Shown piece by piece: positions 6,954 to 50,961 of a stretch of 64,000 nt of DNA. The notes under the pieces were generated by a model that ran no database searches, was not told where the DNA came from, and worked only from the letters and a program-made list of their open reading frames with translations. A program made the translations under genes and the position numbers. Within the stretch, counting starts at the first letter, position 1. Every line of letters begins with the position of its first letter. Source of the stretch: Octopus vulgaris (lineage: Eukaryota); contig OX597815.1 of assembly GCA_951406725.2 (NCBI GenBank), positions 34,038,001 to 34,102,000 on the forward strand, read 5' to 3'.

Positions 6954-7427
6954 AAGGTATGAATATTTTAGACAGTGAAAATTTACAGTTTACAAGGAAG
7001 AAAATTCATAGTTTATAGGGAATAAAATAGAAAAATAAAGAGTAAAAGTAGTTTGAGGAACATAGGCAGAAGAATAATGTTCGCGGCTCGTCTTTTTCTA
7101 GGGAATATGGATGTTGGTCAGTATTTCCTTGGTACATCCACGAAGGTTTAGGGTTTTAGTTAAAACCCCACGTTTTCTCTAAACTATTGTCCTTATAACC
7201 GTAGCAAGATTAGCCTTCCGCCCCAACTCTACTGTAACTTTAACGTTTAACCTCTAACCCCCATACAATACTGACATATCTATATCGTTATTTTACTTTT
7301 ATTTATTCATTTTATTTTTTACTCTGTTACCTCTATCTTATTTTATTTTTATTCCCTTTCTCCTCTCTCCCATATACGCTCACTCACAAAACTCATTTAT
7401 GATAGATCTATCATAACTTTTTCTTTT

Positions 7428-7986
7428 ATTGAGTGAGAGAGCAGTGCATGCCATCAGAGTGATACTGGGGTAAAATATACGAAGCCCAGTATACCCATCA
7501 TGACTACGTGTCTGATAAGGGTACACCAAGCACATGCATCACAACCATATGTGCGCGACAAGGTGATCTTATATCACGATAAACAGCGCATGACCTTGCA
7601 GGTGGGGCCCAGTTAGAATTTTCTTCAGGTTGAGTAGCCCATGCCGCTCAAAAGGTCCCTGAAGAAGGTTTGTTAAAGGATGATGAACGAAACACCCATG
7701 TTTCCAAAGGTGAATTATCCAAACCCCAAAGAATTCCTCTCAACACATGGCTATGATGTTCCCCCACTACTTCTGCTCGTAATCAGAGATGCGCATATCA
7801 TCAGCCACTAAGGGACATGCTCAACTGGTTAAGGTCAAACAACTGACAAGCAAATCTGTGGTATTGAGCAGAATATTTGCTGTAGCCCATCTTTTATACC
7901 AAGACAAAACAATGTACATGATAGCACTTTCAATCAGTTAAGATCAGAAGCCACGAGAGCCACTGCCTGGTACTGCATCAGGGCAT
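7428..7986 (-). mobile_element. Family D ~560 bp non-coding element (normally embedded in (AAT)n)
   Basis: High identity to 22519-23074 and to the reverse complement of 50083-50586. Confidence 0.85.
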
Positions 7987-14657: not shown

Positions 14658-15905
14658 ATGCTAAACTAAAGGAAGGTATTAGAATTTATCTCTCACTTAT
14701 TGCTACTAGAGTAATTACACCACGCCAAGGTTTCTTCTGCTACAGTTAATGCCGTTAACGACTGACTACTATATGATCCACAGCTAGCACTAAGAACTAA
14801 ATCAACTAACATGGGTATCTACAGAAATATTCTAAGAGAGGTTTTGTACTTGTGTTCATTATGGCAGTGTACTCCTTGTCAACATTATTGAGGAAATGCC
14901 AAGGTTACGTTAAGATCTGCGGAGTAAAGGAAATTAGTCACGCACATTGTTTGTGTCAATGACCAATAAGCTTTATTTAGTTACAATTCATAGCCCTAAC
15001 AAGATACAGGGCTGATCATAATATTTTTTACAGGACACAAGAATGGAGTTTGGTCCTACTTGTTTACACTTGTTCATATTCAGTAGTCAATCGAAGATTG
15101 TTGATCAGACGAGAAATATAGATGTCAGTAACCTATTTGCCTCCTATTTCCAAAGAGGAATGCTATAACTATCTTAGAATTGATTAGAATGTGGAACTTA
15201 CAGCTCTTGCAGCCATGCTACAGATTGTCATTTGAACCTATTATCAAGGTACACTGAACTATGTAACAACATATTGGCATAACAGCCTGGAAATGTGATT
15301 CTCCAAAAAAGAAGTAAACAAACTGACTTCGATCCTTTAAATCCAATCGATTAGTGATACTTGAAAATTTGTAAAACATTCCAAAGGCATCTTAGGACAA
15401 TAATGGTATATTTGAAGAGTATGTGTATACAATCGAGGAATAGGAAATACTAATAATATAGTTGATTGACAAAATAGATGGGGATACAGGGAAGACACCG
15501 ACAACCGATGCAGACTTTGTTGAATGAACACTGAAGACGTCACCCACATCATTGGCAGCCATCCGAGAATGCCATCACGGTGCAATTTACCTAAGGGGCA
15601 TAATGTCATGATTAAAACATGTATACAATACAATCTGTAGAAAAGATTATCTTAGAGACAAAAGTATAAGGAGTTGCAATAGTCAGAGTGCATTTTCATT
15701 CACAATATGAAAGAATACCTGTGAAATCTTCTTCTGAAAACCTTAGCAAAATATAAACGCAACTGACCAGACATAATGATCTAGGATAAGAAATTATATA
15801 TGATACTGAAAATTAGTTACGGAGATGTAGTTGCATAGCAAGTGACCTGATTTGAGATCGTGTGCTGGAACGAAAACAATTGCAGCGTGGAAGGTGTTTA
15901 TAAGC

Positions 15906-16146
15906 CATTTAAGAAACACACAAAAACCGTTAGATTCACTTCAACATTTAAGTTTAATTTGCCAAAATATTTTCGTTGCTTTGAGACTGCGACCTGATCA
16001 CTGACAAAATTCCGTGCAGCATCACGGAGATGCTGCACGGAATTTTGTCAGTGAACAGGTCGCAGTCTCAAAGCAACGAAAATATTTTGGCAAATTAAAT
16101 TTAAATGTTGAAGTGAATCTAACGGTTTTTGTGTGTTTCTTAAATG
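15906..16146. repeat. Long inverted repeat (~118 bp arms, 5 nt loop) in an insert bounded by an imperfect 12 bp direct repeat
   Basis: Arms nearly perfectly complementary around acgga (16024-16028); tgaaaattagtt at 15807 and tgaaaattactt at 16145. Confidence 0.9.
16044..16094 (+). ncRNA. Hammerhead-like motif with G3-C8 core variant (mirrored in the left arm)
   Basis: tttgtca-GTGAACA-g-gtcgc/gcaac-GAAA-atat-TT-tggcaaa. Confidence 0.55.
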
Positions 16147-22394: not shown

Positions 22395-22466
<72 letters not shown>

Positions 22467-22467
22467 G

Positions 22468-22518
<51 letters not shown>

Positions 22519-23072
22519 GAGTGAGAGAGCAGTGCATGCCATCAAAGTGACACTGGGGTAAAATATACGAAGCCCAGTATACCCATCATGACTACCCGTC
22601 TGATAAGAGTACACCAGGCACATGCATCACAACCATATGTGCGCGATATGGTGATCTCATATGAAGATAAACAGCACATAACCTTGCAGGTGTGGCCCAG
22701 TTAGAATTTTTTTCTGGTCGAGTAACCCATCCCACTCAAATTGTCCTTGAATGAGGGTTGTTTAAGGATGTTAAATGAAACACCCATGTTTCCAGAGGTT
22801 AATTATTTAAACCCCAAATAATCCCTCTCAACACATGGCTATGATGCTCCCCCACTACTTCTGCTCGTGATCAGAGATGCACATATCGTCAGTCACTAAG
22901 GGACATGCTCAACTGGTTAAGGTCAAACAACTGACAAGTAAATCTGTGGTATTGAGCAGAATATTTGCTGTAGCCCATCTTTTATACCAAGACAAAACAA
23001 TGTACATGATAACACTTCCAATCAGTTAAGATCAGAAGCCATGAGGGCCACTGACTGGCACTGCATCAGGGC

Positions 23073-23074
<2 letters not shown>
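22519..23074 (-). mobile_element. Family D element flanked on both sides by (ATT)n
   Basis: (ATT)n at 22396-22518 and 23075-23135; identity with the other copies. Confidence 0.9.
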
Positions 23075-23136
<62 letters not shown>

Positions 23137-31383: not shown

Positions 31384-32819
31384 ACTTTTTTGTTTTTTGT
31401 ATCTGGTTATTTTAGTGTTTTATTTGTTGTATATAGTTCGTATAGCATGGGTTGTTTTTTGCTGTATAGTCTCAGGTGATTGCTTATTAAGCAGACCCAT
31501 GACTAAAGGATTTCTGATCGTGACCATTCCATCTAGGACTACGTTTTGCAATGTTTTTTTTTAACATATTAGGGTATGATTTGAGGAAATGATTAGGAAA
31601 TTTGGCTACTATCTGTAGAATGTTGAGCGAGGGCATAGAAGCGCCTTTGTTGGCTGTGAGCTGTACTATTTTGTTTGAAGGGGTGTTCGTATTTTGTATG
31701 TGATTCATGTCTTAATAGCAGGGATGGGGGGTGTAGGGTATATGGTATGTGAGTTGTGCGATATTATCGAGTAGTAACTGTTTACAATGTGAGTTGAGTG
31801 AGCCGTTGGTGTTATAATCGATTTCGTAAAAGTATGTGCTGTGTTATTTTATTGGGTGGAAATTGTGTAAGATTCAACGCCGTATCAGGGATGTCACTGC
31901 TTCCTGTGTCTCATTTTAAGAGGCAATCCTCTCGGTGCATTGGATATTCAATAAAGATTAAAGAGCCAAAATTTGTAAAGAAGTTTTGAAAAAGAGGACA
32001 CACCTGATAGACTGAGGACGTTATGTCAAGCGGCTCCGATAGAAGTTATTAAATCCTGGCCACCAAGCACTTGCCTTTTTATAATAGAAGACAACAAATT
32101 GATTACACCAAGCTACTGTACGTGCAATACATAAGTAAGTACATACATAAACAAACGCACGCACGTATTTGATAAATAAAAAGGATCCCTTAAAAATAAG
32201 GGACAACTTTTCTGAGAAGAACAGGATAGCCTCAAAATACAAGAAAGTCTTTGCCGTCACCAAGTAAATACATACTCACAGTTATTCCAAGTTCGGGGCA
32301 TTTATCTCTGACAAATTTGTCACTTTCTCACGATCTTATGCATTTTACTTGAAAATGTATCACTTTTCCCCTTACAATGACAAAATGATAATGATTTGTT
32401 AGTGAAGTAAAAGCGATTGTAAACAGCGGGTGAGACAAAAGGGAAAGATACTTTTTACAAATCTGTTGCATAAATAAATAATATATATACATAATATTGA
32501 TGCACCACAGTAACAAGAAAGACATTCACATGTATACGGATATGATACAAGAGATACACAATACAAAAGTTGTGTCTCTTCTACACACACACACACATAG
32601 AGGGCTAGCAACCGAACTTACACGAGAGCAGCCATATTGAAAAATGATGAACGGACATCAGAGTGTTTGATCTCTATGAGAGGTTCTTATATCTGGTTGA
32701 AATAAAATGTGAGTGATATGCCTTATTTCTTAAGATTTCTGCAAAGACACATTTAACTCTGCCATCAGTTTCGAAACCTCTCCACTTAATGTATATATAT
32801 CAAGTTATACTATATATAT

Positions 32820-33244
32820 ACAACTTATAAACAAGGGCAAAAGAAAAAAAGTTCCAATGCCAAATATGCTGAAAATAGACTTAAGTCGTCAATAACCATA
32901 TAATTTATCACTATAGGCACGCGTCTCAAAAGCAAGCCGACAGAAATTTCTAAAAAATTTTGTTGTTATCGGATCGGCCCTGATTTCCGAGTTTATCCAT
33001 TTAGAATTTTCTCGTCATCAGTGATAAATAGAATAAGACAATAAATGAGATCGCTGATGACGAGAAAATTCTAATCGGGACCAATCCGATAATAACGAAA
33101 TTTTTTAGAAATTTCTGTCGGCTTGCTTTCGAGACGCGTGCGCGTGCCTATAGTGATAAATTATATGGTTATTGACGACTTAAGTCTATTTTCAGCATAT
33201 TTGGCATTGGAATGTTTTTTCTTTTGCCCTTGTTTATAAGTTGT
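32820..33244. repeat. Long inverted repeat (~200 bp arms, 24 nt loop) inserted in the mariner 5' UTR
   Basis: acaacttataaacaagggcaaaag... pairs with ...cttttgcccttgtttataagttgt. Confidence 0.9.
32966..33027 (-). ncRNA. Type I hammerhead ribozyme motif, canonical core
   Basis: Minus strand: ttatca-CTGATGA-cgag...ctcg-GAAA-tc agggcc ga-TC-cgataa; the mirrored arm reads atcg-CTGATGA but lacks GAAA. Confidence 0.7.
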
Positions 33245-33270
33245 TTATAGATTTGTTACAATCATCTGAA

Positions 33271-34442: not shown

Positions 34443-34498
<56 letters not shown>

Positions 34499-34571
34499 TA
34501 AAACGGTAAGATAACAAAAGAAAGAAAGAGACCTCAATATTATGTAAATAGAGGAAATTTATCTATACAAT

Positions 34572-34767
34572 AATATGTTACATTACTCGATAGTCAAGAT
34601 AGAACTCCGAGTTTCAGATGCCGAAGTGGGAATCCACGACATCTCTTCGGTTATCTGGCTATTTGAAAACCTATTTCAAATAGCCAGATAACCGAAGAGA
34701 TGTCGTGGATTCCCACTTCGGCATCTGAAACTCAGAGTTTTATCTTGACTATCGAGTAATGTAACAT

Positions 34768-34770
<3 letters not shown>
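34572..34770. repeat. Long inverted repeat (~97 bp arms, 5 nt loop) between (TA)n tracts
   Basis: Near-perfect complementarity around accta (34669-34673). Confidence 0.9.
34686..34745 (+). ncRNA. Hammerhead-like motif (U4C variant), mirrored in the left arm
   Basis: agataa-CCGAAGA-gatgtcg...cggcatc-t-GAAA-ctc a gag-TT-ttatct. Confidence 0.6.
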
Positions 34771-34808
<38 letters not shown>

Positions 34809-35646
34809 TATATACCACCAAATAAGTTAGGGTTTGTGGATCCAACCCACTAAGGGATAATACTTATCCAATATACTGTTGGTATACTACCCAAATTATC
34901 AATACACAAGTGTTTTTAATTGCAATGCAATTAACTTTTTGTATTAAATGGGTGAAGGTAAAGAAATAAATATTTTACCATTAATTTATAATACAAATAA
35001 GAAAATGAAGAAATAATTTAGTTTGTTCATCAGCTAAATTATTTCTCCATTTTCTTATTTATATTATATACATATATACATATATACAGACAAGACCGCT
35101 GTGTGTGATGAGTAGACTTACATCTTTTAGCCATGGGGAGGTGAATTATTTAGAAGAGAGTTTCTCCAAACAAGAACCTGGTAGGTAGATCCAATATAAT
35201 ATTTGATCTGCAACCACTTATAGTTCATTGTCTTGATGTTTTTTTAAATATTTACACTGCACTGCTTAAAATACAATTTCATCTGCATAGCAAGAATATA
35301 ATTTCTATAGACTTGTATCACAAGAATATGTACTAAAATACGTTATATTTATATATAGCGGAAAACTTCTACATAAGTTCAAGGGTAAGCATCAAGACAA
35401 GGGACGAAGATGCGAGAAAGAAGCGAAGAAAAACAAATCAAAGAATGAATGAGACACGTTCCCCTCTAAACGGATAAAGAATGGAAACTTCAAGTGATAA
35501 CCAAGATTGATGGCAAAAAGACAAAGCAATTAAACATTTTCGAAACAGATTCACACATACCTATAAGCTGAAGAGGAAATAAATAAGAAGTCTGAGGCCT
35601 ATATGAATGTGCAATCGACTAAATTTCAAACAGTAACAATGAAATT

Positions 35647-50082: not shown

Positions 50083-50586
50083 ATTGGAAGTGTTATCATG
50101 TACATTGTTTTGTCTTGGTATAAAAGATGGGCTACAGCAAATATTCTGCTCAATACCACAGATTTGCTTGTCAGTTCTTTGACCTTAACCAGTTGACCAT
50201 GTCCCTTAGTGGCTGACGATATGTGCATCTCTGATCACGAGCAGAAGTAGTGGGGGAGCATCATAGCCATGTGTTGAGAGGGATTCTTTGGGGTTTGAAT
50301 AGTTCACCTCTGGAAACATGGGTGGTTCTTTCAACATCCTTAAACAACCCTTATTCAGGGACCGTTTGAGCAGGATGGGCTACTCAACCTGAAGAAAATT
50401 CTAACTGGGCCCCACCTGCAAGGTCATGTGCTGTTTATCTTGATATGAGATCACCATGTCGCGCACATATGGTTGTGATGCATGTGCCTGGTGTACCCTT
50501 ATCAGACGGGTAGTCATGATGGGTATATTGGGCTTCGTATATTTTACCCCAGTGTCACTTTGATGGCATGAACTGCTCTCTCACTC
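50083..50586 (+). mobile_element. Family D element, 5'-truncated, in (AAT)n
   Basis: Reverse complement of the copies at 7428 and 22519. Confidence 0.9.
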
Positions 50587-50604
50587 AATAATAATGATAA
50601 TAAT

Positions 50605-50961
<357 letters not shown>

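What the first reader, a model, noticed from the sequence alone, without database searches (positions are those of the whole stretch)
34495..34772. Third hammerhead-bearing fold-back, between (TA)n tracts: a recurring architecture
Seen: 97 bp arms, a 5 nt loop and a one-sided extension (34495-34571), with motif agataa-CCGAAGA-stem II-GAAA-cuc/gag-UU-uuaucu. In all three long hairpins (15.9k, 32.8k, 34.6k) the ribozyme 5' end lies within about 20 nt of the loop and reads outward. Inference: one mechanism (self-priming or template switching near the ribozyme) produces these palindromes in three unrelated sequence families.
Basis: partly seen in the sequence, partly recalled or inferred. Interest (0 to 1): 0.75.

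Follow-up and report, generated by a model that had tools for sequence, protein, structure and literature searches.

The report
Head-to-head Penelope retrotransposon end pair
This hairpin is two mirror-image stubs of the end of a common jumping gene (a Penelope-like retrotransposon) sitting in a TA repeat; it likely formed when both cut DNA ends copied the element's RNA from two fixed start points, and its predicted self-cutting RNA lies next to the loop likely only because the copied RNA begins there.

Summary
The hairpin is real (97-bp arms, 2 mismatches, 5-nt loop, TA tracts). It is the 3' end (pseudo-LTR plus tail) of a Hydra-clade Penelope-like retrotransposon, inserted twice head to head; 4,411 exact core matches exist in this genome. 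That shape is published, including for this clade. Junctions are new at nearly every insertion (45 distinct in 46 copies). The proposed ribozyme-linked self-priming fits poorly. One arm carries the tail and the other does not (50 of 52; 32 of 33), yet either arm can reach further 5' (18 vs 21). Some pairs join two subfamilies (3 of 70), and unpaired copies stop at the same place (7 of 12). Twin priming from both target ends fits better. Arms do stop just 5' of the ribozyme in this family, its sister and the 15.9k family, likely at the RNA start. They do not in the 32.8k family, and only 6 of 29 core-selected pairs have a short loop. The core is a U4C variant, so cleavage is doubtful. This scan reached the same reading in at least 11 genomes; I saw those notes only after my main tests.

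The parts
34451..34494 (.). (TA)n target, left side
   Evidence: TA on both sides in 48 of 52 two-arm copies
34495..34556 (-). PLE tail (element positions -1 to -62); in tandem copies it runs on into the 5' leader and ORF
   Evidence: L046, L068, L154; L419; 422 exact junctions with this tail variant, 1,325 with a second variant
34557..34670 (-). tail-bearing pLTR arm, 5'-truncated at about -179
   Evidence: L001
34597..34656 (-). type I hammerhead-like motif, minus-strand copy; the change at 34602 breaks the first pair of stem I
   Evidence: the ends are mirrored from the plus-strand copy
34671..34673 (.). 3 untemplated bases at the arm junction (inside the 34669-34673 loop)
   Evidence: L001; 45 distinct junctions in 46 copies
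34674..34772 (+). tail-less pLTR arm (-177 to about -70), ending in TTGT then (TA)n
34686..34745 (+). type I hammerhead-like motif of Hydra-clade form: CCGAAGA core (U4C), stem II, pyrimidine + GAAA, 1-nt-loop palindromic stem III, predicted cut after 34739
   Evidence: activity untested
34773..34814 (.). (TA)n target, right side
15817..16146 (.). second family, same architecture; G3-C8 swapped core; no arm seen beyond about 15 nt 5' of stem I
32812..33252 (.). third family, same architecture; canonical CUGAUGA core in a 480-nt tandem unit (retrozyme-like); junctions scattered

Best explanation
The hairpin is two 5'-truncated copies of the end of a Hydra-clade Penelope-like retrotransposon joined head to head in a TA repeat, likely built at insertion by twin priming, and the loop lies beside the hammerhead motif likely because the template RNA starts 10-40 nt upstream of it. 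Inferred steps: the GIY-YIG endonuclease cuts both strands of (TA)n. One DNA end primes reverse transcription at the tail end (-1) and the other at the tail-less site (about -70, where TATAGATA resembles the target). Both cDNAs are antisense and grow towards the RNA 5' end. Most use one source, probably the same RNA, and about one in ten or more use two. Each stops at the RNA start, earlier, or (if primed in the downstream pLTR) inside the ORF. Their ends are then joined through microhomology, untemplated bases or a template jump. Ribozyme cleavage is not needed.
For: Shown here: (1) Copies selected by the tail alone continue into an RT + GIY-YIG ORF with the Hydra motifs RWK, DKT, CxCX5C, CxxC and CxH. 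(2) 45 distinct junctions in 46 copies. (3) Strict pairing of ends: the partner is tail-less in 50 of 52 tail-selected pairs and tailed in 32 of 33 resolved tail-less-selected pairs (20 of 20, 12 of 13; 11 insertions are shared between the two samples). One exact tail match in 21 of 29 core-selected pairs, two in 0, none in 8. (4) The tail arm reaches further 5' in 18, the tail-less arm in 21, and 13 are equal within 5 nt. Extremes have no overlap at all (L158 -28/-1040, L186 -46/-989, L417 -61/-1551). (5) Arms match at subfamily sites (67 of 70, 35 expected by permutation), but L012, L029 and L071 pair two subfamilies, and 5 of 102 differ at -96. (6) Private changes sit on one arm 75 times and on both 8 times, so later arm-to-arm correction is not the rule. 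(7) 63 of 86 arms that reach -163 end by -201, about five times the hazard of neighbouring windows; 7 of 12 unpaired copies that reach it do the same (my count after removing copies with decayed partners); so do 15 of 20 sister-family copies (my count). From papers: a purified PLE cuts and extends both target strands, starts at two sites that bracket the tail, is predicted to be a dimer, and inserts with dead ribozyme mutants (PMC11167929); the D. virilis promoter and start site lie in the pLTR region (PMC2377424); Naiads make the same inverted inserts without canonical hammerheads (PMC8557442).
Against: No intermediate was seen and no RNA 5' end was mapped; only contigs were served. The pile-up is broad (-163 to -201), and its mode at -173 may reflect T/A microhomology. 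The detailed sample is one tail variant (422 of at least 1,747 exact junctions). In it 18 of 23 pairs with both cores are short, against 4 of 19 in the larger variant; this difference is unexplained and could mean that long inserts collapse or are lost later. Mixed arms could be ectopic gene conversion. No excess of mirrored A-to-G changes (1 of 8 and 1 of 4), so use of one RNA molecule is not shown. 24 of 79 tail-selected copies had no inverted partner by the script (20 after manual review).
Confidence: 0.62

Rival explanations
1. Self-priming fold-back: one cDNA (or an antisense RNA, as Arkhipova et al. 2013 proposed) folds back near the ribozyme and copies itself, and the new strand joins the target at the TATAGATA microhomology.
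For: Explains tail/tail-less pairing and matching arms. Many junctions are small palindromes or have microhomology. It is the published hypothesis (PMC3846280).
Against: Predicts that the tail arm always reaches at least as far 5'. The opposite holds in 21 of 52 pairs, by more than 20 nt in 16, and some pairs do not overlap at all. It cannot give arms of two subfamilies (L012, L029, L071) without later conversion, and does not explain unpaired copies ending at the same site.
Confidence: 0.15
2. Inserts were longer inverted pairs (made by either route), and the short hairpins arose later by deletion of the centre or spacer; the loop then marks where arm homology ended.
For: Short pairs are 18 of 23 in the window's tail variant but 4 of 19 in the larger variant. 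13 of 52 pairs are symmetric within 5 nt. Central deletions of long palindromes are known (recalled, no call).
Against: Still needs one arm to end at the hot spot. Unpaired copies end there too. Junctions contain element leader sequence that a deletion would not supply. Arm-to-arm divergence is only 1-2% in all subfamily groups that could be typed.
Confidence: 0.13
3. The ribozyme or its fold sets the junction: reverse transcriptase stops at the self-cleavage site or falls off after the structure or at the U-runs just 5' of it.
For: Small excess of ends at -107 to -123 (26 of 198 arms), with four or five ends at -107/-108 next to the predicted cut. A-run slippage at the U-tract in L015 and L143.
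Against: The main pile-up is on the 5' side of the motif, 55-90 nt past the cut site. The -120 excess coincides with the 13-15-nt stem III palindrome, which favours joining by itself. The 32.8k family, with a canonical core, has no pile-up (3 independent pairs of about 18). This family's core is U4C, and in the window copy CCGAAG pairs with CUUCGG in the minimum-energy fold. Longer U-runs further upstream show low hazard.
Confidence: 0.07
4. A palindromic master element is copied as a unit (hairpin RNA or MITE-like DNA element).
For: At least 40 copies match the whole 278-nt palindrome at 92-100%.
Against: Junctions are almost all unique, sizes form a series from under 100 bp to several kb, and the same ends belong to an ORF-bearing element.
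Confidence: 0.03

Closest known systems
Hydra clade of Penelope-like elements (Craig et al. 2021, PMC8557442), incl. Hydra-1_Obim and Penelope-13_HM
   Same: RT + C-terminal GIY-YIG; RWK, DKT, CxCX5C, CxxC, CxH; unit of about 2.6 kb (core spacing); (TA)n target; hammerheads with a pyrimidine before GAA and stem III actc-a-gagt-t (Penelope-3_HM). Penelope-13_HM is listed with a 5'-truncated inverted copy and a hammerhead on each strand.
   Different: A different family from Hydra-1_Obim (its hammerhead differs; my motif strings were not in the supplement). U4C core. Tail of 62-70 nt rather than 30-40.
EN+ PLE insertions with inverted pLTR and one-sided tail (Arkhipova et al. 2013, PMC3846280)
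   Same: Head-to-head pLTRs of about 200 bp, palindromic junction, tail at one end.
   Different: They propose self-priming on an antisense template; arm lengths and mixed arms here argue for two primed cDNAs. A TSD cannot be read in (TA)n.
Dual minimal hammerheads on opposite strands in Schistosoma (Cervera and de la Pena 2014, PMC4209133)
   Same: Two type I motifs 100-700 bp apart on opposite strands, ascribed to truncated PLEs; palindromic stem III.
   Different: No mechanism for the inversion was given in the parts read.
L1 twin priming (recalled, no call)
   Same: Second target strand primes internally on the RNA; inversion joined by microhomology.
   Different: L1 arms do not overlap and the second site is variable; here both sites are fixed and the arms usually duplicate 50-130 nt or more.
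Non-LTR retrozymes (bioRxiv 10.64898/2026.07.22.740005)
   Same: The 32.8k family is a 480-nt tandem unit with a canonical type I core.
   Different: The 34.6k family is the end of a coding element, not a non-coding tandem.

Membership tests
Hydra-clade PLE | single ORF, RT then C-terminal GIY-YIG | tested here: met
   407-aa open frame in L059 with GSYDG, YKDD and YVGLTE; Pfam GIY-YIG only at E 0.034; 37 longer homologues of 714-970 aa. No single intact full ORF was read; parts come from L046 and L059.
Hydra-clade PLE | RWK, DKT, CxCX5C linker, CxxC and CxH | tested here: met
   against the definition; no tree was built
Hydra-clade PLE | (TA)n target | tested here: met
   48 of 52 two-arm copies with TA on both sides; that sample was selected with TA at the tail end, but 28 of the 30 tail matches, selected without flank, also sit on TA at the tail (the other two are tandem junctions)
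EN+ PLE insertion | partial tandem pLTR, inverted 5'-truncated copy, tail at one end | tested here: met
   L046, L068, L154, L419 tandems; 52 of 79 inverted pairs
EN+ PLE insertion | target-site duplication | not testable with these tools
   unreadable inside (TA)n
type I hammerhead ribozyme | three stems around the core | tested here: met
   95% of cells paired in 27 family and sister copies against 33-55% for slid controls; covariation is slight (4 cells), and 18 rows were selected by a pattern that fixes part of the motif
type I hammerhead ribozyme | core C3 U4 G5 A6 N7 G8 A9 | tested here: not met
   C at position 4 in 94 of the first 100 listed matches; the sister family keeps U4; U4C lowers activity in vitro but occurs in an infectious viroid (PMC3088659)
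type I hammerhead ribozyme | self-cleavage | not testable with these tools
   the monomer fold is 4-5 kcal/mol above the ensemble in this family and in the sister alike; the genomic sign at the cut site is inconclusive
non-LTR retrozyme | non-coding tandem monomers each with a hammerhead | tested here: not met
   for the 34.6k family the tandem unit is the coding element; for the 32.8k family a 480-nt tandem unit was seen (L245, L247)
mir-9 precursor (Rfam hit at 34635-34707) | strand-specific conserved miRNA | tested here: not met
   equal score on both strands of a perfect hairpin; the sequence is a repeat of thousands of copies

The most novel reading that the evidence does not exclude
Penelope-like elements insert by a coupled twin-priming reaction: a dimer primes both strands of one break at two fixed RNA sites (tail and tail-less), sometimes on two different RNAs, and the ~200-bp pLTR and its short palindromes are run-off copies of the RNA 5' end. 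A family with a crippled U4C ribozyme spread to thousands of copies this way, so cleavage is dispensable in vivo.
Probability: 0.5. Interest if true: 0.62.

Novelty: new member of a known kind. Interest (0 to 1): 0.38.

Why it matters
The shape is known, but how PLEs make inverted ends and a one-sided tail is described as undefined (PMC8557442), and the published guess is self-priming (PMC3846280). The copy statistics here give sharp predictions for the existing in vitro system (PMC11167929): one tailed and one tail-less end per event, either arm longer, mixed arms from mixed templates, and no dependence on the ribozyme. Such inserts also load this genome with long perfect hairpins that are possible substrates for RNA editing and small-RNA pathways. 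The locus itself is an ordinary young repeat copy.

Tried and rejected
Rfam: no hammerhead family reached threshold; the miRNA hits are hairpin artefacts. Expression and RNA start: no RNA holder listed on record, only contigs were served, so start, cut and strand could not be read. A TATA (-203) / initiator (-174) pair matches the modal end at -173, but ends spread to -201 and microhomology blurs the mode; not accepted as a mapped start. A cap-derived extra base and splice-type jumps at the AG sites near -186 and -168: looked for by eye and not evident. Mirrored A-to-G test for a single RNA: negative or underpowered. ORFs for the 15.9k and 32.8k families: tblastn with this family's protein on loci L191-L320 gave hits only in L218, L294 and L308, none tied to those families. 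The junction count failed (bad regular expression) and was redone. The subfamily labels printed are swapped (the row 'A/C' is type B). The test used 31 instead of 32 tailed partners and overlapping samples, so its p-values are not quoted. The constrained fold for the 32.8k motif and for L311 was mis-specified and is not used. Twenty further planned loci and the 30 loci of the larger tail variant could not be obtained, so that variant was judged from coordinates only. Literature searches for a twin-priming account of PLE inversions and for octopus PLE hammerheads returned nothing to the point; the library lacks most subscription papers, and bioRxiv supplements were closed.

Full report
Observation. 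The window holds an inverted repeat with arms 34572-34668 and 34674-34770 (97 bp, 2 mismatches, 5-nt loop) between (TA)n tracts. The one-sided extension is 34495-34556. The host genome has 2.8 Gb in 227 contigs. It is likely an octopus; this is inferred from the related Hydra-1_Obim protein and from earlier scan notes on this genome.

What it is. The whole palindrome recurs (40 of 1,567 candidates scored, 92-100% identity). Copies picked by the extension alone often run on into an ORF. The ORF has RT motifs, a C-terminal GIY-YIG region and the features that Craig et al. give for the Hydra clade: RWK, DKT, CxCX5C, CxxC and CxH. Tandem copies read ORF end - hammerhead repeat - extension - leader - ORF start (L046, L419), so the arms are pseudo-LTRs and the extension is the PLE tail. 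There are 4,411 exact matches to the core region, and 422 and 1,325 exact tail-(TA)n junctions for two tail variants. Positions below count back from the tail end (-1): tail-less end about -70 to -63, predicted cut -109, core C3 -159, stem I -165.

How the pairs are built. I took every exact junction of the window's tail variant from the start of C1 to C3:107.8 Mb (79 loci after dropping 2 duplicates). 52 have an inverted partner, 24 have none by script (20 after manual review) and 3 run off the locus. The partner lacks the tail in 50 of 52. In the reverse sample, picked by the tail-less junction, the partner has the tail in 20 of 20 resolved cases among 30 loci and in 12 of 13 among 20 more (these 20 were chosen from listed places I did not yet hold); 11 insertions are in both samples. 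Coordinates alone give one exact tail in 21 of 29 head-to-head pairs, two in none and no exact match in 8. Yet the tail arm reaches further 5' in 18 pairs and the tail-less arm in 21 (13 equal), and some pairs do not overlap (L158, L186, L417). A strand that folds back and copies itself must yield one arm nested in the other, so it cannot give a tail on the shorter arm. Junctions are individual (45 distinct in 46 copies with both stems) and show microhomology, untemplated bases, or pieces of the element's own leader (L032, L095, L114, L139). Across 102 pairs the arms agree at subfamily sites (67 of 70 at a 3-nt indel, 35 expected; 97 of 102 at -96, 78.5 expected), but L012, L029 and L071 join two subfamilies. 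Private changes are on one arm 75 times and mirrored 8 times in 128 pairs. So arms were alike at birth, mostly from one source and sometimes from two. Frangieh et al. (PMC11167929, parts 1-2 of 4 read) report that a purified PLE cuts and extends both target strands, starts at two sites that bracket the tail, is predicted to dimerise, and inserts with dead ribozyme mutants; in the parts read they do not address inverted ends. Twin priming is my inference from these together.

Why the loop is near the ribozyme. Of 86 arms that reach -163, 63 end by -201 (hazard 0.019 per nt against 0.004 before and 0.001-0.002 after). A wider set of 220 arms gives the same picture. Unpaired copies do it too (7 of 12 that reach it; my count), as do 15 of 20 copies of a sister family picked by its core (my count). 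In the 15.9k family no arm was seen beyond about 15 nt 5' of stem I; 21 of 30 loci have a tailed partner and 1 a tail-less one (the reference stops there, so the absence of shared upstream sequence was judged by eye). The 32.8k family is a 480-nt tandem unit with a canonical core, and its junctions scatter, with 3 independent pairs of about 18 near the ribozyme. A fixed template 5' end explains all four; a tandem or circular template has none. The D. virilis start site lies in the pLTR region, upstream of the intron whose end abuts the hammerhead (PMC2377424 passages; PMC4209133). Against generality: among 29 core-selected pairs only 6 have a gap of 30 nt or less and 21 have more than 130. Short pairs are 18 of 23 in the window's tail variant but 4 of 19 in the larger one, which I cannot explain. 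In 800 kb of evenly spaced genome, 2 of 20 descriptor hits fell in short-loop inverted repeats covering 1.7% of the sequence, and 42 of 44 repeat rows (a loose list with some duplicates) had no hit; 14 of 41 family arms had a head-to-head partner.

The ribozyme. The fold matches Hydra-clade hammerheads in File S2 of PMC8557442 (pyrimidine before GAA, stem III actc-a-gagt-t), and the stems hold across 27 family and sister copies with little covariation. This family has C4 (94 of the first 100 matches), whereas the sister (1,794 matches) has U4. U4C lowers activity in vitro (PMC3088659 passage). In the window copy the core pairs with CUUCGG in the minimum-energy fold, and a read-through transcript would form a -180 kcal/mol hairpin that buries both motifs. 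Ends at the predicted cut are too few, and too confounded by the stem III palindrome, to show cleavage.

Comparison with what is known. Inverted 5'-truncated copies with a tail at one end are the textbook PLE arrangement (PMC8557442 passages). Arkhipova et al. describe head-to-head pLTRs with palindromic junctions and propose self-priming (PMC3846280 passages). Opposite-strand hammerhead pairs were noted in Schistosoma (PMC4209133, parts 1-2 of 4). Penelope-13_HM of this clade is listed with an inverted copy and a hammerhead on each strand. Of bioRxiv 10.64898/2026.07.22.740005 I read part 1 of 5 (supplements closed); PMC6962438 passages added nothing. Searches found no twin-priming account for PLEs in the held library. 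The scan's own notes list 23 findings in at least 11 genomes with this reading and many in this genome. I opened them; they are not independent support. Two of their leads (ends at the cut site, mirrored A-to-G changes) were tested here and were inconclusive or negative.

Verdict. A real, ordinary young copy of a new Hydra-clade PLE family in a known arrangement. The value lies in the copy statistics, which favour twin priming over self-priming and remove the ribozyme from the cause. Interest 0.38.

Noticed in passing
   Followed up: partly
window 7426-7986, 22397-23075, 50083-50898: A dispersed 94-95% identical repeat lying between (TTA)n tracts.
   Followed up: no
G000 C1:57208925-57222489: Six cores spaced about 2,580 nt apart, four on one strand and two on the other: a palindromic array of full-length units, a candidate for an intact ORF.
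   Followed up: no
L059:2373-2458, run X4 record 31: One contig that joins opposite strands carries 17 listed T>C differences (A>G on the sense strand), mostly absent from the DNA-like run X15; looks like hyper-editing of an inverted PLE transcript, but it is one contig and RNA status is a guess.
   Followed up: no
L338:6717-8327, L383, L351: Another hammerhead family with a U3-A8 core in tandem and inverted arrays; together with G3-C8 (15.9k) and C3-G8, three core pairs coexist in this genome.
   Followed up: partly
L397:3687-3802: A further family with head-to-head hammerheads 25 nt apart in (TA)n.
   Followed up: no
L332, L371, L380: A family of inverted inserts between (TA)n tracts with no descriptor hit; a possible ribozyme-free control.
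   Followed up: no
L325, L336, L362, L366, L367, L375, L384, L391, L392: An abundant hammerhead-like family (GACAC-CTGATGA) mostly without inverted partners, 1 of 9 arms paired.
   Followed up: no
window 34772, 32812 and L271-L300: All three families end their tail-less arm in TTGT followed by (TA)n or TATATA, a possible shared start signal.
   Followed up: partly
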